DNA from: an uncultured Ruminococcus sp.
GTDB lineage: Bacteria; Bacillota; Clostridia; Oscillospirales; CAG-382
DNA: 64,000 nucleotides
NCBI GenBank assembly: GCA_964487775.1
Contig: CAZASH010000005.1
Location: forward strand, 25,352 to 89,351
Reading direction: 5' to 3'
Part shown: positions 15,144-64,000 of the stretch, in pieces
How the letters are laid out: each line of letters opens with the position of its first letter
Position numbering within the stretch: the first letter of the stretch is position 1
Program-made: the position numbers and the translations under genes
The notes under the pieces: model-generated
Databases searched by the model: none
Seen by the model: the letters and a program-made list of their open reading frames with translations, nothing else
What the model was told of the DNA's origin: nothing

Positions 15144-16298
15144 ATGAGAAATAACAAAAACATTAGCATCGCAAAATGCATATCGATAATGCTTTTGCTT
15201 TTTATGCTGATCTCGTGCGTTCTCACGTCCTGCGACCCGAGCGACGGCGATACCAGCGGCAGCGCAGCATCAAACGGTGCTATATCGAATGACGCTTCGC
15301 AAAACGCAGGCACGTCATCTGATGCTTCGGACGCTTCTGACGTTTCGGACACATCAGACAATTCCGAAGCCCCCGAGGCTTCTGACACATCGGATGAAGC
15401 AGGCGGAAATTCTGTTTACGCCGAGCAAAAGGGAGGGTATAAATTGAAGGTAAAAAAGCTTTCGAGCAACCAATATCGCTTTACGTCACATATTTTCGAC
15501 GACCGCAAGGTCGCACTCACGCTTGATAAACGCGCGTGGGGCACTTACATATTAGGCTCGTGGACGCTTTCGACCGCAGGTGGCAACGTCAACTTCACAG
15601 GCGGCTCGACTGATATGGAGTATGTCTATCGTGCATCCGACAAGCCGTCGGGCGGCTATGTCTGGTCTGGCGGCAACCACGGCAACGAGACCCTCGTCTC
15701 GCTCGAGTTTTATGACGGTGAAACCTTGCTCGACCTTGATTCGGGCAAAGAGTTTGAGGTAGAAACCTTGACCGTCGTGCAAAAAACTCATCTGCACCTC
15801 GGCAACCCCGATGATTATTATGCCGCCGTGACACGCAATTATACGATAACGGCAGAGCAGATCAGGCTCGACTGCGAGTATGACCACGTCAAGGATGTCT
15901 ATTGGTATCTCTCGTACACCTGTATGATGCCGATAAGTAAGGCCTACGGCACGCACGCAGATTATTATGAGAACGGCAAGCTTATCTATCAGTGCGAAAC
16001 AGGCGAGACCTGCGAGAAGGAATACGCCTCAGACACGTTCTATGAGGGCTATGGCGCCGACTGCGTCGTGCTCTACGGCAACAAGAATCCGAGATACAAG
16101 ATACAGGTCAGAGTGCTCACCCCCGAGACTGCAACAGACAACTTCAGCAACACACGCAAGACAATGTTCTGGGATATGAATAAAACCCACAACAAGCTTT
16201 ATTTCAGCAAATACGAAGAAAATACGCCGACATTGGTTGCGGCAGGCACTAAATATACCACCTCGTGCTCGTGGCTTTTGATAGATGACGAGGCATAA
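15144..16298 (+). CDS. Secreted lipoprotein of unknown function; its C-terminal ~270-aa domain is paralogous to the C-terminus of the next gene
   Basis: The start was moved to the ATG at 15144 (AAGGAG upstream). The signal peptide has a lipobox (LTSC), followed by a Ser/Asp-rich linker. It shares the motifs AWGT..LG.W, EYVYRA, SGGNHG.E, FWDMN..NKLYFS with 16308..18251. Confidence 0.7.
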   Translation: MRNNKNISIAKCISIMLLLFMLISCVLTSCDPSDGDTSGSAASNGAISNDASQNAGTSSDASDASDVSDTSDNSEAPEASDTSDEAGGNSVYAEQKGGYKLKVKKLSSNQYRFTSHIFDDRKVALTLDKRAWGTYILGSWTLSTAGGNVNFTGGSTDMEYVYRASDKPSGGYVWSGGNHGNETLVSLEFYDGETLLDLDSGKEFEVETLTVVQKTHLHLGNPDDYYAAVTRNYTITAEQIRLDCEYDHVKDVYWYLSYTCMMPISKAYGTHADYYENGKLIYQCETGETCEKEYASDTFYEGYGADCVVLYGNKNPRYKIQVRVLTPETATDNFSNTRKTMFWDMNKTHNKLYFSKYEENTPTLVAAGTKYTTSCSWLLIDDEA

Positions 16299-51441: not shown

Positions 51442-51508
51442 TGCATATACCTCCCACGAAAGTATATGCAGAGAAGGCCGGAAATGAGCGATTGAAAAAA
51501 GGGATAAT

Positions 51509-51890
51509 GCGCCTTTGGCGCAGTGAAGTTATGCCTTTGGCACAGCGAAGCACTGCTTCACTGTCGCTTTAGCGACAACTTAACTGCGCGAAGCGCTTCG
51601 CTTGCGGCTCTACGGCAACTGAAGTTGCCTACAATCCTTCCGTCTTTTGACTCGCTTTTAAAAAAGCTCGCAAAATCCACCTCCCTTTACACAAGGGAGG
51701 CAAGGACTGAACCACAGCGAATGGTGTTCTACAGAGCGTTGGCACGAGTTTTCGCCATTGAGAGCGCTATATAAATTGTTTTTGCTTGCAAAAACTTCCT
51801 TATCTCGGCGAAGCCGAACTTCACGGCGCGACAGCGCTGCTTCACTGTGCGAAGCACTACTTCACTGTCGCGACAGCGACAACTTAACTG
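51509..51890 (-). repeat. Copy B of the hairpin-array repeat, in inverted orientation relative to copy A
   Basis: 51590-51762 is the exact reverse complement of 22134-22306 (173 bp, hand-verified in 10-nt blocks). Flanking hairpin+GTGAAG units are homologous to those of copy A but differ in number. GCGACAACTTAACTG occurs at 51572-51586 and 51876-51890. Confidence 0.85.
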
Positions 51891-51914
51891 TTCTTTGCCT
51901 GCTATGGCGAAAAT

Positions 51915-52688
51915 TTAACGTTTTCTTTTAAATGCGACCGGTGCTATGATTGCCGCTGCTACAGCGTACAGTGCTGTTGTCAAAAGCGAGACCAAAAACT
52001 TTTGGTCGAGGATGAGTGCGGCGGTCTGTCTTGCGACTGTTACGGCAGGATAAAACGGCAGCAGGCGGCAAAATGCTTCAAACTCGCCCATCTGCTCAAG
52101 TGGCATCCATGCGCCGGAAAGCATCGAGCCGCCCGAAATGATTATCGAGCATATGCCGGGTGCTGCCTTGTCGCTGAAAAGCGAGCCGAATATCATGCCG
52201 AGTGCGATATAAAACAGCACAGTTGGCAAAAGCGTTACAAAGCAGAGCGCTATTCCGCCGATCGAGAGATAGTCTGCGCCTATGAAAAGCGCCACTAAAC
52301 ATCCGCACATAAAGCAGACTGCGGTCTGCAAAAGCGCAATAAGCATTCCTGCCGCAGCGTAGCCGATTAAATAGTCTGCCGAGCTGAGCGGCGAGACATA
52401 AAGCCGCGACAGGAGGCTGGTCGAGCGGTCCTTTGACACGAGAAGCGCCATAAAAAGCATTACAAACGTATAAGAGAAGCAGCAGATCGACGGCGTAAGC
52501 GTGGCAAGCTCGAACATCGGCGTCATTCCGCTCGAAAAGTGGTTGATGGCCGCAAACGTGAAGAGCATTATCACGGGAAACGCTATGCAGAATATTGCAG
52601 ACAGAATGTCGCGCGCTATCTCTTTGATACACCTGCCTGCAAAGTACGACGCTTTCGATTTCTTTTTTGTATTAACGGTCATTCCCAA
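51915..52688 (-). CDS. ABC-2 type transporter permease
   Basis: A 257-aa protein with 6 TM segments, overlapping the upstream ATPase gene by 10 nt. Confidence 0.8.
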   Translation of the reverse strand: MGMTVNTKKKSKASYFAGRCIKEIARDILSAIFCIAFPVIMLFTFAAINHFSSGMTPMFELATLTPSICCFSYTFVMLFMALLVSKDRSTSLLSRLYVSPLSSADYLIGYAAAGMLIALLQTAVCFMCGCLVALFIGADYLSIGGIALCFVTLLPTVLFYIALGMIFGSLFSDKAAPGICSIIISGGSMLSGAWMPLEQMGEFEAFCRLLPFYPAVTVARQTAALILDQKFLVSLLTTALYAVAAAIIAPVAFKRKR

Positions 52689-53401
52689 TCACTCTCCTTG
52701 CCGACGAGCGAAACAAACGCATCCTCGACCGAATTTGTGCCTGTCGTATTCATAAGTTCACTTGGTGTTCCGAGCGCTTTGATAACGCCATTTGACATGA
52801 TGGCGATACGATCGGCGAGCGCTTCTGCCTCTTCAAGATAATGAGTTGTCAGCACGACGGTAACGTCGCCGTGCAGATCTCTTATTATCTCCTGAAGTCC
52901 TCTGCGTGCCATAACGTCGACGCCAAGCGTGGGCTCGTCGAGAAACAGCACCCGAGGGTCTGTTATCAGCGCCATGGCGATAGACAGTCGCCTTTGCTGT
53001 CCGCCCGAAAGCTTTGACGAAAGAGTATCTCGCTTGTCGGCAAGATGCATTTTATCGATCATTTCGTCGATGCTGGCGTTCTCTATGCCGTAGATGCCCG
53101 AAATAAACTCAAGGTTTTCTCTCACGGTGAGCTTTGTTGCTACCGAGGTCTCCTGCGGTGAAACGGCGATTAGCGGCTTGATGCGGTCGTATTGCTTTGA
53201 AATGTCCATGCCGAGTATTGATATCCTGCCCTCGGTCGGCTTAGTGAGCCCTGTCAGCATTCGGATGAGCGTCGTCTTGCCTGCGCCGTTCTGCCCGAGC
53301 AAGGCAAACAGTTCGCCCTCGTTTATCTCGAGATCGACATGATCTACCGCTTTAACATCTCCATAGGCTTTGCAAAGACCTTCAGCTGTTATCGCTCTCA
53401 T
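52679..53401 (-). CDS. ABC transporter ATP-binding protein
   Basis: LLGQNGAGKTT, LSGGQQRRLSIAMAL, LFLDEPTLGVD. Confidence 0.92.
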   Translation of the reverse strand: MRAITAEGLCKAYGDVKAVDHVDLEINEGELFALLGQNGAGKTTLIRMLTGLTKPTEGRISILGMDISKQYDRIKPLIAVSPQETSVATKLTVRENLEFISGIYGIENASIDEMIDKMHLADKRDTLSSKLSGGQQRRLSIAMALITDPRVLFLDEPTLGVDVMARRGLQEIIRDLHGDVTVVLTTHYLEEAEALADRIAIMSNGVIKALGTPSELMNTTGTNSVEDAFVSLVGKESDWE

Positions 53402-53600
53402 CGGTATGCTCCTCTCTGAAAAGCCTGTCTGCGGCTTTGTCCATTATGCCGGAAGGCAAAATCGCAATCCCGCGGCGTGTGTCGGCGAGGACTATCAACG
53501 TGTCGCCTGCCGAAATGCCAAATAGATCTCTGACCTCTTTGGGAATAACTATCTGTCCTTTTTCGCCGACCTTGGCGGCACCTGCATATCTTTTTGCCAT
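53382..53600 (-). CDS. AbrB/MazE/SpoVT-type DNA-binding domain protein
   Basis: KVGEKGQIVIPKEVRDLFGISAGDTLIVLAD swapped-hairpin motif. It overlaps the ATPase gene by 20 nt. Confidence 0.75.
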   Translation of the reverse strand: MAKRYAGAAKVGEKGQIVIPKEVRDLFGISAGDTLIVLADTRRGIAILPSGIMDKAADRLFREEHTDESDNS

Positions 53601-53723
53601 TTTTAATACCTCTTTGTGTGTTTTTTGATGCGATGAGTATAATTAGTATGAAAAGTATGATTTGTATAACTGATTATATCACCTAAAATTAATGGCAACA
53701 ATAGTTATTTTAACAGATTTCTA

Positions 53724-56774: not shown

Positions 56775-56843
56775 TCGCCAACCGTCGGAAAAAATTCTCG
56801 CCAACCGTCGGAAAAATATCTCGCCAATCGTCGGAAAAATATT
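56775..56843 (+). repeat. Three tandem 23-bp direct repeats upstream of sigK
   Basis: TCGCCAACCGTCGGAAAAAATTC / TCGCCAACCGTCGGAAAAATATC / TCGCCAATCGTCGGAAAAATATT, contiguous, followed by a partial TTCGGCG. Confidence 0.9.
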
Positions 56844-56935: not shown

Positions 56936-57619
56936 ATGCTTTCAGCACTGATAAGGTTTATAACGAGGTTTGTATCGCTGTTTCTGCGCACGTCGTCGGG
57001 GTCGTTTCCAAAGCAGCTTTCGGCGTCGGAGGAGCGCGAGTTGTTTGCTCTTGCGCGTTCGGGCGATCGCAATGCACGCAAGCGCATAATCGAGTGCAAC
57101 ATGAGGCTCGTCGCACACGTCGTCAAGAAATATTATGTCGGCGCAGACGATCAAGAAGAGCTTGTTTCTGTCGGCACTGTCGGGCTGATCAAGGCGGTCG
57201 ATTCGTTTGACAGCACCAAGGGCGCGCGGCTTGCGACATATGCGGCGAAGTGCATACAAAACGAGATACTTATGTACTTCAGAGCGCAGAAAAAGTATGC
57301 GTGCGAGGTGGGACTGTCTGAGGCGGTGGATGTCGACAAGGACGGAAATCCGCTGACCTACATCGACATTCTTGCGGCTGATGACGACGTTTTTGAAACG
57401 ATCTCAGAGCTCGATATGCGCTTTGCTCTGGTCGAGGCGATCAGAAACGCATTGACAGAGCGCGAAAAAGAGATCATCGTCCTGCGCATGGGAATGCACG
57501 GCAAGCCGTTGCCGCAGCGCGCGGTCGCAGAAAAGCTCGGTATTTCACGCTCGTATGTTTCACGCATCGAAAAGCAGGCAACCGACAAATTGCGCAGGTA
57601 TCTGATCGAGAAGAAATAA
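56936..57619 (+). CDS. sigK: Sporulation sigma factor K (pro-sigma-K), apparently intact
   Basis: The ATG at 56936 follows GGGGGAA. The hydrophobic pro-sequence is MLSALIRFITRFVSLFLRTSSGSFPKQLSASEE. NMRLVAHVVKKYY resembles SigK (RLVAHIVKKF) rather than SigE. Region 4.2 is LGISRSYVSRIEKQA. Confidence 0.88.
   Translation: MLSALIRFITRFVSLFLRTSSGSFPKQLSASEERELFALARSGDRNARKRIIECNMRLVAHVVKKYYVGADDQEELVSVGTVGLIKAVDSFDSTKGARLATYAAKCIQNEILMYFRAQKKYACEVGLSEAVDVDKDGNPLTYIDILAADDDVFETISELDMRFALVEAIRNALTEREKEIIVLRMGMHGKPLPQRAVAEKLGISRSYVSRIEKQATDKLRRYLIEKK
57518..57558 (+). repeat. Copy 1 (inside sigK) of a 41-bp exact direct repeat
   Basis: CGCGCGGTCGCAGAAAAGCTCGGTATTTCACGCTCGTATGT is identical to 58632-58672, and the flanking bases differ on both sides. 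Confidence 0.95.
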
Positions 57620-57676
57620 GGCAGTAATTTGTTGTATTTGCACAAAAAGCGGTATAATATTTGTGAAAATCGGTGA

Positions 57677-57705
57677 TTGACGATTTGCTAATGCAACCCT
57701 ATAAT
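57677..57705 (+). promoter_or_regulatory. Sigma-A type promoter for the 57751 gene
   Basis: TTGACG (57677-57682), a 17-nt spacer, then TATAAT (57700-57705). Confidence 0.6.
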
Positions 57706-57750
57706 ATATTTAGAACCAAAGAGTTCGAATATTATTAAAGGAGTGCTGTT

Positions 57751-58587
57751 ATGGAAAACATTCGCAAATCGCTTTCATTGCTTTTAGTCTTCGCGATGCT
57801 TATCATCGTGGCGGCCATGTGTGTATATTTGATTGTCGACAACAGCCTGCGTTTATCAGCGCTTGGTAATTCTGCCGATTCGCTTTCTGCCGCCCTTGAC
57901 GATAAAGGAGCCATGAATATGCCTATAGGAGGGTTGAAAGCGCTTATTGAGAAGCACGGCTGCGCCGATCTCGATGCTTTGACCCCAAGGGATAAAGTGA
58001 GCTTCAAGCTCTCTTATCAAAGCAGAACACATCATTACGACGAAGAACTGAAAAAGCTGTTTTATTACAGCAGCGGACCTTCAAGCATTTTTGACATTGC
58101 AAGGCTGAATGCGCAGCATCCGATAGAATGCATTGAGCTGCTTGGCGACGACGATGCTTATGTCGTTTACAAAATACAGAATGCCGACTCACAGCAGTAT
58201 TACACCTGCATGTTTTTAAAACGCAAAATAATATTCGACACCGAAGTGATGGGGCTGTCTGAGGTATGGGAGCCGACACCTCAGCTTTATACAGTTTCGA
58301 GGCATGTTAGCTCGAGCGATTTTGAGAACATCGTGCCTGGCAGCACGATAGACGATGTTGCAAAAACAGACCCTGCCGCAAGATATGACATTTTAGAGAG
58401 CAATGACGATACGAGCCACACCTCATATCGGCTCTTAACCGACGGCGTTATGGTTATCAAATACGACATTTCGTGCGAGGACGACTATATTGTTTCGAGC
58501 AAAGAATTCTTTGCATTCGATGACGCCGATGCTGCAAAAGAGCTTATGCCGTATGTTGATATTTCTCTTCTTAGCAGAATAGAGTAA
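57751..58587 (+). CDS. Hypothetical membrane-anchored/secreted protein (orphan) in a segment of intermediate GC content
   Basis: AAAGGAG RBS. The N-terminal TM/signal anchor is LSLLLVFAMLIIVAAMCVYLIV. I recognise no family, and the composition is visibly less GC-rich than the core genes. Confidence 0.6.
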   Translation: MENIRKSLSLLLVFAMLIIVAAMCVYLIVDNSLRLSALGNSADSLSAALDDKGAMNMPIGGLKALIEKHGCADLDALTPRDKVSFKLSYQSRTHHYDEELKKLFYYSSGPSSIFDIARLNAQHPIECIELLGDDDAYVVYKIQNADSQQYYTCMFLKRKIIFDTEVMGLSEVWEPTPQLYTVSRHVSSSDFENIVPGSTIDDVAKTDPAARYDILESNDDTSHTSYRLLTDGVMVIKYDISCEDDYIVSSKEFFAFDDADAAKELMPYVDISLLSRIE

Positions 58588-58594
58588 TTCAAAA

Positions 58595-58621
58595 GGGCTT
58601 TCGCGTTAACCGCGAAAGCCC
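58595..58621. terminator. Strong hairpin after the 57751 gene; the U-tract lies only on the minus-strand side
   Basis: GGGCTTTCGCG - TTAAC - CGCGAAAGCCC. AAAA precedes it on the plus strand, and no T-tract follows. Confidence 0.5.
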
Positions 58622-58631
58622 TGCCTGTTAT

Positions 58632-58672
58632 CGCGCGGTCGCAGAAAAGCTCGGTATTTCACGCTCGTATGT
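58632..58672 (+). repeat. Copy 2 of the 41-bp sigK-derived direct repeat, at the left border of the AT-rich element (candidate att core)
   Basis: It is identical to 57518-57558. Read in the sigK frame it continues ...SRSYV-YNIC-stop. Confidence 0.95.
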
Positions 58673-58840
58673 ATATAATATCTGTTAATATAAATGAATG
58701 GCATTCGTAAAAAACACAAGAGCGACCATTCATTTTTTATTATGCAAAAAGCGGACAGGCTACCCATAAACATAGGATAACTATGGGCTTTTCTGTGCGT
58801 TTGCATTGAAAACTTAACGGCGCTCGGAAAGGATTATAAT

Positions 58841-59707
58841 ATGGCAAGTGCTGTTCAATGGATAAAAATTACAACGGACATTTTTGATGATGAAAAAATA
58901 CTTTTGATTGACTCAATGCCCGAAGCGGACAAAATCATAATAATTTGGTTCAAACTTCTTTGCTTGGCAGGAAAGCAGAATAACAAAGGTGTTTTTATGT
59001 TCAAGGGTGTCCCCTACACAACGCAAATGTTATCAACGATTTTACACCGTGATGAAGATACAATAAAAAGAGCTCTTACTATTTTTGAAGATTACGGTAT
59101 GATTCACTATGAAAATAGTGCAATAGTAATTACAAACTGGGGGGAGCACCAAAGTCTTGATAAAATCGAGGCGAATGCTGCTTATATGCGAGAATATATG
59201 CGTGAGTATCGTAAAAAACAGCGTGATGTTGCAAACGGCAAGGACGAACATAAAGTTAACGATAAAGTTAACAGTAAAGTTAATATTAACTCGCCAGATA
59301 TAGATATAGAAAAAGATAAAGATAAAGAAAATAACAAAGAAGATAATAGTAAACAATCATCTGGCGAGGGCGATTCTAAAATCAATTATAATCAAATTAT
59401 TGCTGTCTTTAATGAAATTTGTAAATCTTTACCGAAAGTTTTGAAACTGAACGATAGTCGCAAAAAGGCTCTTAAAGATGCTCAAAGACATTTAGGTGAT
59501 ATAACATTTGAGGACTTTTTCAAAAGGGTGGAAGCCTCTGATTATCTAACAGGAAGAAAGACTGATTGGTGCGCCAGCTTTGATTGGATAATAGCGCAGT
59601 ACAATATGCTCAAAATCTTAGAGGGCAACTTTGATAATAGGAATAAGTCGGTAAAAGAAAACTATACAGATATTTCTAAATATCAGAATATGAAAATGGA
59701 GGTATGA
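58841..59707 (+). CDS. Phage-type replisome organizer / DnaD-like replication initiation protein
   Basis: The N-terminus WIKITTDIFDDEKILLIDSMPEADKIIIIWFKLLCLAGKQNNKGVF is typical of the phage replisome organizer N-terminal domain. It has a Lys/Asp-rich linker and a C-terminal domain (LTGRKTDWCASFDWII). Confidence 0.75.
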   Translation: MASAVQWIKITTDIFDDEKILLIDSMPEADKIIIIWFKLLCLAGKQNNKGVFMFKGVPYTTQMLSTILHRDEDTIKRALTIFEDYGMIHYENSAIVITNWGEHQSLDKIEANAAYMREYMREYRKKQRDVANGKDEHKVNDKVNSKVNINSPDIDIEKDKDKENNKEDNSKQSSGEGDSKINYNQIIAVFNEICKSLPKVLKLNDSRKKALKDAQRHLGDITFEDFFKRVEASDYLTGRKTDWCASFDWIIAQYNMLKILEGNFDNRNKSVKENYTDISKYQNMKMEV

Positions 59708-59710
59708 CCT

Positions 59711-60385
59711 ATGGATTATCTTGCTCAAATAAAATATTATCATAGCGTTTGTTCTGGACTTAAAAAGCGTCATATCTATTGCAATTTATATAATTTCAAG
59801 CCGAGGACAGGACAAGATGATGCCATTAGTGCCGTTAAGCAGTTTGCCTGTGATTTCCTTGATAATAAAAATCCAGTTGGACTTTTATTAGTTGGCGGTG
59901 TTGGCTCGGGTAAAACATACATTGCGGCAAGTCTTGTAAACTATCTTGCTGATGTTATGGAACTATATTCTTGCGAAGAACATTCCGATGAATATATTGA
60001 TTTGCTAAAATCAGATTTTTCGTGGCTTGATAAAAATACCAACGTTTGCTTTGTAGTGATCTCGGAATTATATGAGCATTTGAGATATTGCTATAGCAAC
60101 AATGATCCGTGGTCGCCCAAAAGAATAATGAACCATTTGCGAGAGGTCGATTTATTGGTTTTAGATGATATGGGTGCAGAGAAAACAAGTGATTGGACAA
60201 AGGAAATTTTGTTTAACATCATTGACTACAGATATAATGAGCAACTGCCTATGATTGTTACAACAAACTGTGTTCCCGAAGAACTAAAAGAGAAAATCGG
60301 AGACAGAAATTTTGACCGTTTACGTGAAATGTGTGCATTGGTTTCGGTGGTGGCTACAAGCCAAAGAGAAACTGCAAAATTATAA
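59711..60385 (+). CDS. DnaC/IstB-like AAA+ helicase-loader ATPase
   Basis: Walker A is LLLVGGVGSGKTYIA and Walker B is DLLVLDDMGAEK. The sensor-like segment is MIVTTN. Confidence 0.8.
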   Translation: MDYLAQIKYYHSVCSGLKKRHIYCNLYNFKPRTGQDDAISAVKQFACDFLDNKNPVGLLLVGGVGSGKTYIAASLVNYLADVMELYSCEEHSDEYIDLLKSDFSWLDKNTNVCFVVISELYEHLRYCYSNNDPWSPKRIMNHLREVDLLVLDDMGAEKTSDWTKEILFNIIDYRYNEQLPMIVTTNCVPEELKEKIGDRNFDRLREMCALVSVVATSQRETAKL

Positions 60386-60407
60386 ATAATACCGGAGGTA
60401 TAGTATT

Positions 60408-60869
60408 ATGAGTACAACAACTAATTATGAATTTAATATTGGATTTGACAAGGGCGAACGCTTACCACTAACCAGTACAGAATGGCTCGACCAAGCTGAA
60501 ACCTGTGTATTAGGAGTAAAAAGTCATTTCAAGAAAATGCCCAAATCCGAAAAGACATTCTTGGACTTGGCTTCAACGCTAATTTCAACTGTTCGGGACA
60601 ATTTAGAAACCGACAGAGAAATGGGGTTGACTTACGAAAACGAAGACAGTCTCGGACTTGCTAATGTTACGGTCTATCGTCATACTACGATTGAAAATCA
60701 AGCCTTCAACAGAAATATTACTCCATATGAGTTATTGGAATATTCCAAAGAAAATATCGGTGCCATTATGGATACATATAACATAGATACAGATACCTAT
60801 CGCAAGCTGAATTCAGTATATGTTCAACTAATAGAACTTCAGGAATACTTTGAGGAAGATACAGAATAA
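60408..60869 (+). CDS. Hypothetical protein (mobile element)
   Basis: GGAGG RBS. A 153-aa acidic protein. I recognise no family. Confidence 0.5.
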   Translation: MSTTTNYEFNIGFDKGERLPLTSTEWLDQAETCVLGVKSHFKKMPKSEKTFLDLASTLISTVRDNLETDREMGLTYENEDSLGLANVTVYRHTTIENQAFNRNITPYELLEYSKENIGAIMDTYNIDTDTYRKLNSVYVQLIELQEYFEEDTE

Positions 60870-60896
60870 TAACATAATGCAATATAGTTAAAACAA

Positions 60897-60934
60897 AAGC
60901 CATTGGAACTGCAACAGCGGTTTCAATGGCTTTT
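60897..60934 (+). terminator. Rho-independent terminator ending the replication module
   Basis: AAGCCATTG - 18-nt loop - CAATGGCTT followed by TT. Confidence 0.55.
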
Positions 60935-60968
60935 CCCTTTATATGAAGCGAATTATAAAAGGCTAATC

Positions 60969-61184
60969 TTAGGTGACAACATTATATGTCATATCGCCAA
61001 TGGTATAATCGCAAGTACCGTCTGCTTTCTCAATAGCGGAAATGGGCAGTCCTTGCAATTCAAGGATACTTGTTAAAAAGACAAGTATATCAGCGTTGCT
61101 GTATCTTGCCTCGTTTGACAGTTCGTTTGGTGTCTGCGTTCCTGCCCCTGTGTTTGCGGTAATTGTTCTTCGTACTCTTTTCAT
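60969..61184 (-). CDS. Small hypothetical protein (mobile element)
   Basis: A 71-aa ORF downstream of the repressor-like gene on the same strand. I recognise no family. Confidence 0.4.
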   Translation of the reverse strand: MKRVRRTITANTGAGTQTPNELSNEARYSNADILVFLTSILELQGLPISAIEKADGTCDYTIGDMTYNVVT

Positions 61185-61436
61185 AGTGATGTCCTCTTTT
61201 TGTAATCTGACACTAAAGAGTAATACATCTCGGTTAGATGTTCCGAAAGTCTCGAACTCTGCGACAGTTTCAGCCGAATTACCAACAGACAGAAAACAGT
61301 ATCTTTTGTGTCTTCAATAATATTAAAGGTTTTCGGGATTGCTCTCCCAATCACAAAGGCGATACAAGGCGAAAGGTAAATTCCCCCGATAATTTATACT
61401 GTTATAATTAAAATGGCAGACAGGCGGTTTTATGCC

Positions 61437-61766
61437 TTATTCTGCGGTGTCCTCGTCTACGCCTAAAAGAATATCCACAGCCTGTTGTAAATCTTCTTTC
61501 GTGCGGTATGCTTTGATAACTTTCTTTTCGTGTGCGTTCAGCTCGTCATCGGTCAAGTGAACATCAAGCAAATCACTCGGAGATACATTCAATGCTCGGC
61601 AGATTTTACCGATAATATCCGCATCGGGTCTGTTTATGCCTTGCTCCCAATTCGATACACGGCTCTTGGTTACACTTATTTTCTCTGCCAACTGCTCCTG
61701 TGTCAGACCGCTTTCCTTTCTGTACTTGCGTATTCTATTGCCAATCTCGTATTTCAAGAAAATCAC
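61437..61766 (-). CDS. XRE-family HTH transcriptional repressor (cI-like)
   Basis: IGNRIRKYRKESGLTQEQLAEKISVTKSRVSNWEQG. It is divergent from a second XRE gene. Confidence 0.8.
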   Translation of the reverse strand: MIFLKYEIGNRIRKYRKESGLTQEQLAEKISVTKSRVSNWEQGINRPDADIIGKICRALNVSPSDLLDVHLTDDELNAHEKKVIKAYRTKEDLQQAVDILLGVDEDTAE

Positions 61767-61823
61767 CTCACTTATAGATATTATACACGAAAATAAAGAA
61801 AAAGCAATAATTTTATCAAGATT

Positions 61824-61881
61824 TTCTGTACTTTTGCATTGACTTCACCGTTTATCTGTGATATGATATAAGAAAGTACAG
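61824..61881. promoter_or_regulatory. Switch region: rightward promoter flanked by operator-like inverted/direct repeats
   Basis: TTGACT (61839-61844), a 17-nt spacer, then TATGAT (61862-67). CTGTACTTT (61826-34) and AAAGTACAG (61873-81) form a 9-bp inverted repeat around the promoter. TTTCTGTA occurs twice. Confidence 0.55.
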
Positions 61882-61908
61882 TATTTCTGTATTCAGGGAG
61901 GTGCAGAT

Positions 61909-62115
61909 ATGGAAGTTTACAAGAAAGTGAGGGCATACATTGAGGATAACGGCTACAAGCAATTAGCCGTAGCACAGAAAGCAGGTATATCAAAAGTTAC
62001 ATTCAATGCAATGATGAACGGCAAACGGACTATGTATGCAGACGATTTAAGAGCCATTTGTTTGGCTTTGAATGTCAGCCCCGAGGTATTTATAGAAGTA
62101 CCTAAAAACTGCTAA
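61909..62115 (+). CDS. XRE-family HTH protein (Cro-like)
   Basis: GGGAGG RBS. QLAVAQKAGISKVTFNAMMNGKR. 68 aa. Confidence 0.75.
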   Translation: MEVYKKVRAYIEDNGYKQLAVAQKAGISKVTFNAMMNGKRTMYADDLRAICLALNVSPEVFIEVPKNC

Positions 62116-62126
62116 AAGCAAGAGAG

Positions 62127-62879
62127 GTGGTTTTCTTGAAACATACCGAATTTTGCAGAGCTCAAATAAGATATGCTATTGATTTTTTGTTTTACAGTTA
62201 TTTTCGATTGGACTTAAACAGTAGTACATACGATATAGTCAATTCAGCAATCGACAAGGCATATTTAGACGCAGTTCAGCAAGGAGCATACAATACACTT
62301 GTTCCCGATAATATGAAAGAAAAATCGGCTGAGATTAAAGACTTGGCTAAAACTCAAATTTTGGAATTTTTATCTTCCGTTTCTATAGATGATTATAGGA
62401 TAAAGCACGATACTTGTTGTGATAATCTTGTAAACCTGTATTCTGAAATTCGGAATAAAAACAATTCTGAGTTACAGGCTTTTACTTTTGGAAATGCTCA
62501 GAAATGGGTTAATATGACAACTAAGTATATCTACTTAATTTGCGTTGTGTTTTCCAACATAACGGAGCAACACCCATTCAAAGAAAGCGTATACAACAAA
62601 TTCATAGATTTTGAAGATATACTCGAAATACCCATAGACAGTTTCATATTAGAAAAAATATGGAATGACTTGCCACAAGTTGAGTTGCCTTTGCGGAATA
62701 TCCGTAACAGAAACGGCAAATGGTCTAATGATAAGGTCATCCCTTGGAGCCAATGGGATAGGGATATGTATGTATCTTTTAGGAACTCGTTTCTTAAAGC
62801 AGTACATAATCCTATTGCGTGGGAAAACACCGCTTGGATTGAAATAGCACAAAAACGGAAAACGGGAAAGGAAAATTAA
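62127..62879 (+). CDS. Hypothetical protein (mobile-element cargo), function unknown
   Basis: The start is GTG at 62127 or, better spaced from AGAGAGG, TTG at 62136. It is about 247-250 aa, Trp/Asn-rich, with no TM segment. I recognise no family. Confidence 0.55.
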   Translation: MVFLKHTEFCRAQIRYAIDFLFYSYFRLDLNSSTYDIVNSAIDKAYLDAVQQGAYNTLVPDNMKEKSAEIKDLAKTQILEFLSSVSIDDYRIKHDTCCDNLVNLYSEIRNKNNSELQAFTFGNAQKWVNMTTKYIYLICVVFSNITEQHPFKESVYNKFIDFEDILEIPIDSFILEKIWNDLPQVELPLRNIRNRNGKWSNDKVIPWSQWDRDMYVSFRNSFLKAVHNPIAWENTAWIEIAQKRKTGKEN

Positions 62880-62880
62880 A

Positions 62881-64000
62881 ATGGATAAACTATACCGCAA
62901 AAGTATTTGTGAATATTTGCTCACAAAAAAGCAAGAAAGTGGATATACTTTCAATGTGCTTTTGAACGAGGGAAACTTAACGCAAAAATTCAGCAAGGGC
63001 GATTGGTCGCTGTTCCCTTGTGCTATCATCAGCGGTAACTATGAATATCACACCAATGATTTGCAAAACTACTGCTTAGACTTCTCAAAAGAATTACCTG
63101 CTACGCTCTGTCCTGCCCTTACGATATTGACGGATAATATATCCGATGTGATAGAAATAGAAAAGGCTGTTACACAATGGCTAAGCAATAAAGTAACACT
63201 ACAAACAGAACAAGTATATCAAAATGGTGAGGGTCTTTCTTTTGATATATCAATAGATAGTTCAGAAAAAATAGATCGTAGCAACAAAGACTTCACATAT
63301 CAAGACGGCAAACGCACACTGTACCAAACTTTTATAAAACTGAAATCTGCAACGGATGTTATTATTTTTATGCGTGATTATCACCCTGCGGAAATAGACT
63401 TTGACAAAGGTGTTCAGCTTAAATTAGTAAAGCGTGGCAAAGCATTAGAAGAATTAAAAAGACAAGTCGATACATTTACCGCAGAACAGACACAGCAGAT
63501 ATGTTTAGGGTATGATGAAATTGTTTCTCTGCTCGGTATTATATCTTTTGACAGTTTCGGTTTTACAGAACTGTATCAAGTAATGTCTGACAATAATTGC
63601 GATATTAAAACCGCTCTGGCTGAATGTGCAAAGGCTGTTACCGAACGGACACAAAGAGCCGAAGAAGAACAGAGGAAAGAAGCGGAACGCCAACAGGCAG
63701 AAGCAAACCGTGTAAAGCATATCAATGAAATTTTCAGCAAACAAGGCGACAGCGCAATTAACAGATATACAGACGGCGTTATCGCTGACATTAACAGTAG
63801 ATTGGATTTACCTTATTCGGTATCTGTTTACGGTGGCAGCACATTCTCAGAATGGCACCGCCGTAATGAACTGAGCAAATTGGACTACCCGAATATCCTT
63901 GTTAAAGATGTTGTTAATTTCAGTTTTGACCATAAGACATACAGGACAGAAAATGCTGACGAAAACTTTATCGACAGACCTTTCAGCACAGAAATATTGC
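62881..64000 (+). CDS. Hypothetical large protein, 5' part only (more than 373 codons, runs off the right edge)
   Basis: It is absent from the ORF track because it is open-ended. My translation from the ATG at 62881 gives MDKLYRKSICEYLLTKKQESGYTF...RTQRAEEEQRKEAERQQAEANRVKHINEIF...FSTEIL, with no stop up to 63999. The ATG lies 1 nt after the upstream stop. Confidence 0.6.
   Translation, partial: MDKLYRKSICEYLLTKKQESGYTFNVLLNEGNLTQKFSKGDWSLFPCAIISGNYEYHTNDLQNYCLDFSKELPATLCPALTILTDNISDVIEIEKAVTQWLSNKVTLQTEQVYQNGEGLSFDISIDSSEKIDRSNKDFTYQDGKRTLYQTFIKLKSATDVIIFMRDYHPAEIDFDKGVQLKLVKRGKALEELKRQVDTFTAEQTQQICLGYDEIVSLLGIISFDSFGFTELYQVMSDNNCDIKTALAECAKAVTERTQRAEEEQRKEAERQQAEANRVKHINEIFSKQGDSAINRYTDGVIADINSRLDLPYSVSVYGGSTFSEWHRRNELSKLDYPNILVKDVVNFSFDHKTYRTENADENFIDRPFSTEIL

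What the first reader, a model, noticed from the sequence alone, without database searches (positions are those of the whole stretch)
57518..58672. Exact 41-bp copy of an internal sigK segment marks the junction with an AT-rich mobile element (skin-like / sigK-targeting integration history)
sigK (56936..57619) reads as intact. However, the 41 nt at 57518-57558 recur exactly at 58632-58672, and the bases flanking each copy differ on both sides. These 41 nt encode ...RAVAEKLGISRSYV in region 4.2. Immediately right of copy 2 the DNA becomes AT-rich and carries phage/ICE-type genes. Read in the sigK frame, copy 2 continues as SRSYV-YNIC-stop, which is what a sigK 5' part fused to element DNA would look like. 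In B. subtilis and C. difficile, sigK is interrupted by 'skin' elements that excise in the mother cell. Here the layout is core - 1.07 kb (sigK 3' end plus one orphan gene, intermediate GC) - core - AT-rich element. That fits sequential or tandem integrations at a sigK att site, one of which supplies a replacement sigK 3' end. It equally fits an element carrying a sigK fragment from an earlier imprecise excision.
Basis: partly seen in the sequence, partly recalled or inferred. Interest (0 to 1): 0.75.

Follow-up and report, generated by a model that had tools for sequence, protein, structure and literature searches.

The report
Skin-like element beside a restored sigK
The 41-bp repeat is the host-side half of the attachment site of an 11.4-kb mobile element that splits the sporulation sigma-factor gene sigK in sister strains, but in this genome an extra 1.1-kb segment keeps sigK whole and leaves the element parked just downstream.

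Summary
In detail: 57518-57558 and 58632-58672 are identical, and none is expected by chance. Copy 2 is the host arm of attL of an 11,368-bp AT-rich element ("E2", 58673 to about 6 kb beyond the window). E2 ends with a 533-aa large serine recombinase, followed by GTATGT and a second exact copy of the sigK tail (68 bp). There is no third 41-mer; the true shared core is only 6 bp.

Near-identical sister contigs (99.95-99.98%) lack the 1,114 bp between the repeats and have a split sigK (212-aa product ...SRSYVYNIC*). In-silico excision rebuilds the window's sigK exactly. Thirteen element-free relatives have one 41-mer and an intact sigK. E2 relatives sit at the same sigK codon in two other host species.

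So E2 is a new member of the known "skin" class. What is unusual is this genome's layout: intact sigK, then a 996-bp orphan-gene cassette, then a 41-bp sigK fragment joined to E2. The cassette is chromosomal and occurs at another locus in other strains. It is not a second mobile element supplying a replacement 3' end.

Whether the split form arose by deletion between the repeats, or the intact form by a later repair, is unresolved. The finding is of moderate interest as a natural split/unsplit pair.

The parts
56936..57619 (+). Intact sigK (227 aa, with a pro-sequence-like N-terminus).
   Evidence: Pfam Sigma70_r2 and r4. Best NCBIfam hits are SigK models covering the full length. The CDS is identical to the one rebuilt by in-silico excision from the split form.
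57518..57558 (+). 41-mer copy 1: the left (B) arm of attB inside intact sigK. It encodes RAVAEKLGISRSYV.
57553..57558 (+). GTATGT, the only sequence shared by attL and attR. The inferred crossover dinucleotide is GT at 57557-57558.
   Evidence: The junctions are read. The inferred attP is an imperfect palindrome (22/30 ungapped, about 25/31 gapped) centred on this GT.
57559..57620 (+). sigK tail (SRIEKQATDKLRRYLIEKK*, plus 1 nt): the right (B') arm of attB. Together with GTATGT it forms a 68-bp exact repeat of the sequence that follows the element's far end.
   Evidence: L090 17906-17973 equals window 57553-57620 at 100%.
57627..58622 (+). Orphan cassette: sigma-A-like promoter (57677-57705), 278-aa secreted or membrane-type gene (57751-58587) and terminator hairpin (58594-58622).
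   Evidence: It is 98.4-98.7% identical to a cassette between a ClpP-like gene and a 702-aa gene in L190-L195. No Pfam, PHROG or PADLOC family matches. Its leader and 5' end are orthologous to the sequence after sigK in L108.
58623..58631 (.). 9 nt (GCCTGTTAT) matching neither the cassette's other locus nor sigK. The only novel junction of the arrangement is 58631|58632.
   Evidence: Homology boundaries. Every other junction is found in other genomes.
58632..58672 (+). 41-mer copy 2: the B arm of attL, a non-coding sigK fragment joined to the element.
   Evidence: It is identical to the attL of the split-sigK contigs L091 and L092.
58673..64000 (+). Left 5.3 kb of element E2. The whole element is 11,368 bp at GC 0.37 and ends at window-equivalent 70040.
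   Evidence: L090 6538-17905. Contig L095 (11,377 bp) spans exactly this unit.
58692..58753 (.). Hairpin at the element's left end (58692-58735) and a 33-nt inverted copy of the recombinase's 5' leader (58721-58753).
   Evidence: Local alignment score 51 against a shuffle maximum of 26.
58841..60385 (+). Replication module: replisome organiser/DnaD-like gene (58841-59707) and DnaC-like helicase loader (59711-60385).
   Evidence: PF09681 at 6e-40, phrog_10469 at 1e-64, phrog_50 at 1.5e-51.
61437..62115 (.). Divergent XRE-type repressor (61437-61757, minus strand) and Cro-like gene (61909-62115, plus strand).
   Evidence: HTH_3 and HTH_26 hits.
62136..64000 (+). Genes of unknown function: 247 aa (62136-62879) and the start of a 745-aa gene (from 62881, running off the window).
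   Evidence: Gene calls in L090. No family hits.

Best explanation
Copy 2 of the 41-mer is the bacterial arm of attL of an 11.4-kb sigK-intervening (skin-like) element, E2.

E2 is integrated by its own large serine recombinase, whose gene lies at the far edge of the element next to attR. The crossover is within GTATGT (probably at the final GT), between the Val and Ser codons of ...SRSYV|SRIEK... in sigma-K region 4.2.

In sister strains E2 sits inside sigK. Recombinase-mediated attL x attR excision would rebuild the gene exactly, presumably in the sporulating mother cell as for other skin elements (inferred, not shown).

In this genome the 103-bp stretch of sigK that spans attB is present twice:
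- once as part of an intact sigK (41-mer copy 1 plus tail);
- once as a non-coding copy 1.07 kb downstream, after a chromosomal orphan-gene cassette. E2 occupies this downstream copy (41-mer copy 2 | E2 | tail copy 2).

Consequences: sigK is whole, sigma-K production no longer depends on excision, and E2 still has complete attL and attR arms. Its excision would leave only a 103-bp sigK scar downstream of the orphan gene.

The two forms differ by exactly the 1,114 bp between the 41-bp direct repeats. My favoured polarity (about 50%) is that the duplicated-attB form is older in this lineage and the split form arose by deletion between the repeats.
For: Far end of E2: a 533-aa protein with Resolvase, Recombinase and Zn_ribbon_recom domains (phrog_95 at 2e-102). 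It is followed by ...GCGATATT GTATGT TTCACGC..., which is the sigK tail, 68/68 identical to 57553-57620.

Split form: L091 and L092 are 99.95-99.98% identical on both sides. They lack only window 57559-58672 and encode a 212-aa truncated SigK. Joining their two halves at GT gives a CDS identical to the window's sigK.

Empty sites: 13 E2-free genomes at 91-98% identity have an intact sigK and a single 41-mer and tail. L201, L206 and L207 are colinear across the site.

Target specificity: a 93% E2 relative abuts ...ISRSYV of a 48%-identical sigK (L010). A 99.9% copy is followed by another species' tail, SRIEKSALEKLRRQF* (L093).

att sites: the inferred attP is an imperfect palindrome centred on GT.

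The orphan cassette is chromosomal, not mobile-element DNA.

A window-type population has a frameshifted recombinase, which is tolerable only if sigK is intact.

The layout matches published skin elements, with the recombinase at the element edge next to the 3' fragment (bioRxiv 10.1101/2022.02.25.481979; PMC5025042).
Against: No excised circle, attP junction or empty downstream attB copy was observed directly.

No recombination directionality factor or sporulation-specific promoter could be identified. The recombinase has a sigma-A-like promoter.

Polarity is unresolved. The split form carries three derived private SNPs, but that fits either direction.

If the attB duplication were as old as the sigK-orphan junction (shared with the 91% relative L108), the two 103-bp copies should have diverged, yet they are identical (0/103, against 7/103 between L108 and the window). 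This requires either gene conversion or a recent event.

SigK membership is just under the curated cutoffs.

The recombinase frameshift rests on one assembly.
Confidence: 0.8

Rival explanations
1. Post-integration rescue. The split form (sigK::E2 in a strain where sigK is followed by the 285-aa gene) came first. A later recombination with an allele carrying intact sigK plus the orphan cassette was anchored by homology on one side and joined illegitimately at 58631|58632. This inserted [tail-cassette-9 nt-41-mer], restored sigK, and was selected because it removed the dependence of sporulation on excision.
For: The window-type layout has only one novel junction (58631|58632); all other junctions exist elsewhere. 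Both copies of the 41-mer and the tail are identical, as expected for a recent event. The split form equals an empty-site allele plus one precise integration. A dead recombinase occurs in a window-type strain.
Against: It needs a donor with sigK followed by an intact orphan cassette and an identical tail. No such element-free genome is on record among 5.8 billion protein clusters. The clone's own ClpP locus carries a different cassette. Deletion between 41-bp direct repeats is mechanistically far easier than this insertion.
Confidence: 0.25
2. Aberrant excision and re-entry. E2 once excised imprecisely from a strain with sigK::E2 followed by the orphan cassette. It formed a replicating circle [41-mer|E2|tail-cassette]. 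That circle later integrated by homologous recombination through the 62-68-bp tail into an intact sigK, giving the present order without disrupting the gene.
For: E2 has its own replication module, so an aberrant circle could persist. Recombination in the tail gives exactly the observed order. Logan unitig L105 starts exactly at GTATGT and runs through the tail into the orphan with no branch, hinting at an E2|tail-orphan context in 3 samples.
Against: No such circle or donor arrangement was seen on any long contig. Recombination over 62-68 bp is inefficient. The L105 hint rests on the unitig behaviour of a k=31 assembler.
Confidence: 0.1
3. Tandem accretion. The 1.07-kb interval is a degenerate second integrated element (CIME-like) flanked by att cores, whose left end supplies a replacement sigK 3' end. 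The original 3' end lies beyond E2.
For: Direct repeats flank the interval, its GC is intermediate, and it contains an orphan gene.
Against: The tail after copy 1 is identical to the tail beyond E2, and it matches the tails of element-free strains at all but 1-3 of 68 positions. The interval is bounded by B' on the left and B on the right, the reverse of an integrated element. Serine-recombinase att sites here share only 6 bp, and there is no third 41-mer. The interval's 996-bp body is a chromosomal cassette at another locus in other strains and lies downstream of sigK in L108. It has no recombinase and no P-arm sequence.
Confidence: 0.03
4. Artefact: either a chance repeat or a chimeric assembly of two strains (one with sigK-orphan, one with sigK::E2).
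For: The data are metagenomic assemblies, and both forms occur in the same study.
Against: Zero chance matches in shuffles. The same O-end|41-mer|E2 junction was assembled independently in at least 6 samples at k=141, well above the 41-bp repeat length. The orphan unitig occurs in more than 20 further samples.
Confidence: 0.01

Closest known systems
skin elements of Bacillus subtilis (48 kb, SpoIVCA) and Clostridioides difficile (14.6 kb, CD1231 plus the directionality factor CD1234)
   Same: A mobile element interrupts sigK. A large serine recombinase is encoded at the element edge next to the sigK 3' fragment. Precise excision rebuilds the ORF. As in C. difficile, the recombinase has a sigma-A-type promoter (PMC5025042; bioRxiv 10.1101/2022.02.25.481979).
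   Different: The insertion point is different: region 4.2, leaving only a 20-codon 3' fragment. There is no detectable shared gene content beyond the recombinase class, whose best match to any annotated phage integrase is at most 33% identity. In this window the element does not interrupt sigK at all; it lies in a duplicated non-coding sigK fragment. Developmental excision has not been shown.
gin element in gerE of Bacillus cereus ATCC 10987 (PMC5595907)
   Same: A gene-intervening element of a sporulation gene with no phage structural genes and several serine recombinase genes. E2 has a 533-aa large serine recombinase, a 196-aa invertase and two resolvase-like fragments.
   Different: The target gene is different (gerE versus sigK). 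gin is 28.6 kb. E2 carries a phage-type replication module and repressor/Cro switches.
Clostridium perfringens phage phiS63, a functional sigK-intervening prophage (PMC3442830), and SPbeta in spsM (PMC4191935)
   Same: A serine-integrase element inserted into a mother-cell sporulation gene.
   Different: Those are complete phages. E2 has no capsid, terminase, tail or lysis genes detectable with Pfam or PHROGs and is only 11.4 kb.
Tandem accretion of ICEs with CIMEs at the 3' end of fda in streptococci (from my own knowledge)
   Same: Superficially similar: repeats of a gene's 3' end flanking a small gene-poor interval next to a larger element.
   Different: Those use tyrosine integrases with long identical cores and correctly oriented att sites. 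Here the interval has inverted att polarity, is chromosomal DNA, and the recombinase is a serine enzyme with a 6-bp shared core.

Membership tests
skin-type sigK-intervening element | The element lies inside the sigK ORF, separating a 5' part from a 3' part. | tested here: met
   This is met in sister contigs L091 and L092 (212-aa truncated product; tail 11.4 kb away). It is not met in the window itself, where sigK is intact and the element abuts a 41-bp sigK fragment.
skin-type sigK-intervening element | It encodes a SpoIVCA-like large serine recombinase at the element edge, adjacent to the sigK 3' fragment. | tested here: met
   A 533-aa protein with PF00239, PF07508 and PF13408 ends 11 nt before GTATGT plus the tail.
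skin-type sigK-intervening element | Precise excision restores an intact sigK reading frame. | tested here: met
   The in-silico join at GT gives a CDS 100% identical to the window's sigK. Element-free relatives have the uninterrupted site. No experimental excision was observed.
skin-type sigK-intervening element | Excision is sporulation- or mother-cell-specific and controlled by a directionality factor. | not testable with these tools
   Only a sigma-A-like promoter upstream of the recombinase was seen. No directionality factor is recognisable among the small ORFs.
large serine recombinase system | N-terminal catalytic domain with the active-site serine, a recombinase domain and a zinc ribbon. 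The att sites have a short shared core, and attP is an imperfect inverted repeat. | tested here: met
   Domain hits. A YLRLS motif lies near the N-terminus (sequence). The shared core is GTATGT only. attP symmetry is 22/30 about GT.
SigK (sporulation sigma factor K) | A score above the curated NCBIfam cutoffs for the SigK models. | tested here: inconclusive
   NF004471 scores 249.8 against a cutoff of 252, and TIGR02846 scores 241.4 against 298.65. Both are the best hits, full-length, and about 60 bits above the SigE models. Every one of the 80 related loci retrieved with this protein comes from a Clostridia-type or Ruminococcus MAG.
temperate phage / prophage | Structural (capsid, terminase, tail) and lysis genes are present. 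| tested here: not met
   No such hits for any E2 protein in Pfam or PHROGs. No near DNA match in 50,697 phage records.
element that regenerates the target gene's 3' end (tyrosine-integrase style) / CIME accretion | A long identical core at both ends of the element, a replacement 3' end that is element-borne, and att sites in attL...attR polarity. | tested here: not met
   No third 41-mer at up to 4 mismatches. The tail copies are identical and host-like. The interval is bounded by B' then B. Its body is a chromosomal cassette.

The most novel reading that the evidence does not exclude
The window shows a natural bypass of a developmental DNA rearrangement. A duplicated, non-coding copy of the sigK attB region acts as a decoy landing site, so the host keeps the element but no longer needs excision to make sigma-K. 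Near-isogenic gut populations carry the same element either splitting sigK or parked beside it. One parked copy already has a dead recombinase, which would mean the dependence on excision is being actively lost or gained in nature.
Probability: 0.35. Interest if true: 0.7.

Novelty: new variant of a known kind. Interest (0 to 1): 0.55.

Why it matters
Skin elements are a textbook case of a mobile element turned into a developmental switch, but whether interrupting sigK benefits the host is still debated. Here the same element, in the same strain background (over 99.9% identical), is found either inside sigK or displaced 1.07 kb downstream of an intact sigK. That gives a natural matched pair for testing the effect of interruption on sporulation timing and fitness in an uncultured gut Ruminococcus.

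It also shows a simple route by which a host can neutralise a gene-disrupting element, or conversely become dependent on it: duplication or deletion of about 100 bp spanning attB.

There is a practical point too. The long direct repeat is not the att core, and annotation pipelines would miss both the element's nature and the split gene in the sister strains.

Tried and rejected
- **Exact 41-mer (with Y at the variable site) in IMG/VR:** no hit.
- **Orphan terminator region and E2 left end in JGI metagenomes:** no hits. The E2 left end in IMG/VR found only the contig already held.
- **Third copy of the 41-mer at the far end, up to 4 mismatches:** absent.
- **Orphan 278-aa versus 285-aa protein by BLASTP:** no similarity (E = 6), so simple paralogy could not be shown. 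Only the roughly 130-nt leaders look related.
- **Orphan, 247-aa and 745-aa proteins:** no Pfam, PHROG, NCBIfam or PADLOC family.
- **Rfam and tRNA scans of the window:** nothing, so there is no tRNA-type att site.
- **SNP table to polarise split versus intact form:** the two split contigs form one sub-lineage with three derived SNPs, but this does not give direction.
- **Homologue search for the orphan:** only its own cluster and one 87% relative in an unrelated context. No element-free 'sigK-orphan' genome was found.
- **Scan of 80 sigK loci of GTDB species:** none other than L108 carries the orphan, the 285-aa gene or this recombinase near sigK.
- **Reading L095 (11,377 bp, exactly the element) as an excised circle:** rejected. 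Its ends overlap by only 3 nt, and branching of the assembly graph in multi-host samples explains it equally well.
Full report
**1. Observation**

The 41-mer is present exactly at 57518-57558 and 58632-58672. There is no further copy in the window at up to 3 mismatches, and none occurred in 100 shuffles. The flanks differ on both sides.

Copy 1 lies in region 4.2 of an intact 227-aa sigma factor (56936-57619). Its best family matches are the SigK models: full length, about 60 bits above SigE, but marginally under the curated cutoffs.

GC is 0.52 in the host, 0.44 in 57559-58631 and 0.37 to the right of copy 2. The AT-rich block begins with a replisome organiser, a DnaC-like loader and a divergent XRE/Cro pair.

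**2. Extending beyond the window**

Exact-protein look-ups found the same locus on a 302-kb ENA contig (L001/L090; window = L090 + 52135) and on other assemblies.

The AT-rich element, E2, is 11,368 bp (window 58673 to equivalent 70040). Its last gene is a 533-aa large serine recombinase with Resolvase, Recombinase and zinc-ribbon domains.

Eleven nucleotides after its stop codon the sequence reads ...GCGATATT GTATGT TTCACGCATCG.... From GTATGT onward, 68 nt are identical to window 57553-57620, the end of sigK. Host genes follow: a 285-aa lipoprotein-like gene, DUF421, Rpe and VanY.

There is no third copy of the 41-mer. attL (...CACGCTC GTATGT ATATAAT...) and attR share only GTATGT. The inferred attP is an imperfect palindrome (22/30 ungapped; about 25/31 with one gap) centred on the final GT. 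That pattern is expected for a serine integrase with a 2-bp crossover.

**3. Natural controls**

- **Split form.** L091 (ENA, 232-kb contig) and L092 (Logan) are 99.95-99.98% identical to the window on both sides. They lack exactly window 57559-58672. In them sigK runs straight into E2 and encodes a 212-aa product ending ...SRSYVYNIC*. Joining the two sigK parts at GT rebuilds a CDS identical to the window's.
- **Empty sites.** Thirteen E2-free genomes at 91-98% identity carry an intact sigK with a single 41-mer and a single tail. L201, L206 and L207 are colinear with the window lineage across the site.
- **Other hosts.** An IMG/VR relative of E2 (93% identical) abuts ...ISRSYV of a sigK only 48% identical. 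A 99.9% copy is followed by a third species' tail, SRIEKSALEKLRRQF*.

E2 is therefore a mobile, sigK-specific, skin-like element. Its layout, with the recombinase at the edge beside the 3' fragment, matches the 15 skin elements surveyed by Galperin et al. (bioRxiv 10.1101/2022.02.25.481979). Its lack of phage structural genes and its several serine recombinase genes recall the gin element (PMC5595907). It has no near match among annotated phages or plasmids, and its recombinase is at most 33% identical to phage integrases.

**4. The 1.07-kb interval**

It is not a second integrated element.

- It begins with the native sigK tail.
- After 6 unmatched nt comes a 996-bp unit (57627-58622) holding a promoter, a 278-aa gene and a terminator hairpin.
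- After 9 further unmatched nt comes 41-mer copy 2.

The 996-bp unit is 98.4-98.7% identical to a cassette lying between a ClpP-like gene and a 702-aa gene in six other samples. In the window's own strain cluster, that locus holds a different 271-aa cassette with the same leader architecture and an identical 33-bp hairpin.

Downstream of sigK, element-free strains carry either the 285-aa gene or a 163-aa gene behind a homologous leader. The 91% relative L108 carries a decayed orphan leader and 5' end fused to fragments of the 285-aa gene. So the orphan belongs to a family of chromosomal variable cassettes, and the sigK-orphan junction is old.

The window layout can be written as:

sigK5' - 41mer - tail - [orphan] - 41mer | E2 | tail - [285-aa gene].

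Only one junction in it (58631|58632) is not found in some other genome.

**5. How it works**

*Shown.* The window genome has an intact sigK. It also has an E2 copy with complete attL (39 nt of the sigK arm left of the GT) and complete attR.

*Inferred from the family.* The recombinase, with an unidentified directionality factor, excises E2. In split strains this rebuilds sigK, presumably during sporulation. In the window strain it would leave only a 103-bp sigK scar after the orphan gene. Sigma-K synthesis here is therefore independent of excision.

*Consistent with this.* The recombinase of one window-type population (L094, which overlaps the window-type contig L003 by k = 141) carries a 1-nt deletion at nt 268. 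This rests on a single assembly.

**6. Origin and polarity**

The two forms differ by exactly the 1,114 bp between the direct repeats. Deletion between the 41-bp repeats converts the window form into the split form in one step. The reverse needs an insertion with one illegitimate junction.

Points favouring 'duplicated attB first':
- The orphan downstream of sigK is ancestral (L108).
- The window lineage shares the ancestral T at position 24 of the 41-mer with L108, whereas all other strains have C.
- All other alleles can be derived from a duplicated-attB ancestor by simple deletions.

Points against:
- The two 103-bp copies are identical. L108 and the window differ at 7/103, so the duplication is either recent or homogenised by gene conversion.
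- No element-free duplicated form was found.

The split contigs form one sub-lineage with three derived SNPs, which does not decide direction. My estimates are about 50% for duplication first followed by deletion, about 25% for a later rescue, and about 10% for an aberrantly excised E2 that carried its flanks and re-entered by homologous recombination in the tail.

**7. Verdict**

E2 is a new member of the skin class. The 'parked beside a restored sigK' configuration was not found in the literature I searched and is a new variant of a known kind. Interest is moderate: the mechanism class is well known, but the natural near-isogenic split/unsplit pair makes the long-standing question of what sigK interruption is good for directly testable.

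Noticed in passing
window 56775-56843: Three tandem 23-bp repeats (TCGCCAACCGTCGGAAAAAWWTY) lie between the upstream terminator and the sigK promoter region. There are two copies in L006 and two in L108 (one of them degenerate), so copy number varies between strains. They may be a regulator-binding array.
   Followed up: partly
window ~51499-53700: A MazE-like antitoxin gene plus a two-gene ABC transporter module is present in the window and in the split-form contigs. It is absent from all ten other strains that cover the site (L006, L108, L201-L204, L209-L210). A 42-nt repeat (51545-51586 and 51849-51890, 90% identical) lies at its left edge.
   Followed up: partly
L212-L215 (Logan, 5 samples), sigK codon 109: In a lineage with roughly 93% nucleotide identity over the first ~330 nt of sigK, the gene diverges abruptly after ...AAKCIQN (product ends AILS*) and the contigs end 18-53 nt later. 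This is a second, independent interruption of sigK at a different site, by an unidentified insertion.
   Followed up: partly
window 57621-57750; L090 17974-18112; L196; L190-L195; L202-L211: A family of variable secreted or lipoprotein-type cassettes (278, 285, 271 and 163 aa) shares a conserved leader of about 130 nt (TGyACAAAA ... ATTGAC-N17-TATAnT). The cassettes occupy two chromosomal sites interchangeably: downstream of sigK and downstream of a ClpP-like gene.
   Followed up: partly
window 58692-58753 and L090 ~16243-16274: The left end of E2 carries a hairpin (AAATGAATGG...CCATTCATTT). It also carries a 33-nt inverted copy of the recombinase's 5' leader (30/33 matches, score 51 against a shuffle maximum of 26). 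This may be a shared operator, or a terminator for the recombinase gene in the circular form.
   Followed up: partly
L094 7493-9093 (window-equivalent ~68695): The recombinase gene has a 1-nt deletion at nt 268 (not in a homopolymer) in a window-type population of sample ERZ27271042, truncating it after about 90 residues.
   Followed up: partly
L091 and L094, 285-aa gene (L090 18113-18970): A nonsense mutation (C421T) splits the 285-aa gene into 140 + 144 aa. The two fragments are on record from 22-23 contigs, so the gene is often a pseudogene.
   Followed up: no
L002 (window-equivalent 60952-61254) and L097: There are variants of E2. One has a SNP-dense stretch of about 300 bp over the 71-aa gene. 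Another has a different left module (a 771-aa gene and an IS1595-type gene) joined to E2 at about 60895. This suggests modular recombination among E2 relatives within one sample.
   Followed up: no
L105 (Logan, 3 samples), window-equivalent 57553-58619: This unitig starts exactly at GTATGT and runs through the sigK tail into the orphan cassette. It lacks the break at 57591 seen in L106 (at least 20 samples). This hints at an 'E2 right end | tail | orphan' context, or at genomes lacking the tail-to-285-aa path. It is unexplained.
   Followed up: no
L201 and L208, between the NAGPA/dockerin gene and sigK: Some element-free strains have an extra 424-aa AAA_14/DUF4143 ATPase gene inserted immediately upstream of sigK.
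   Followed up: no
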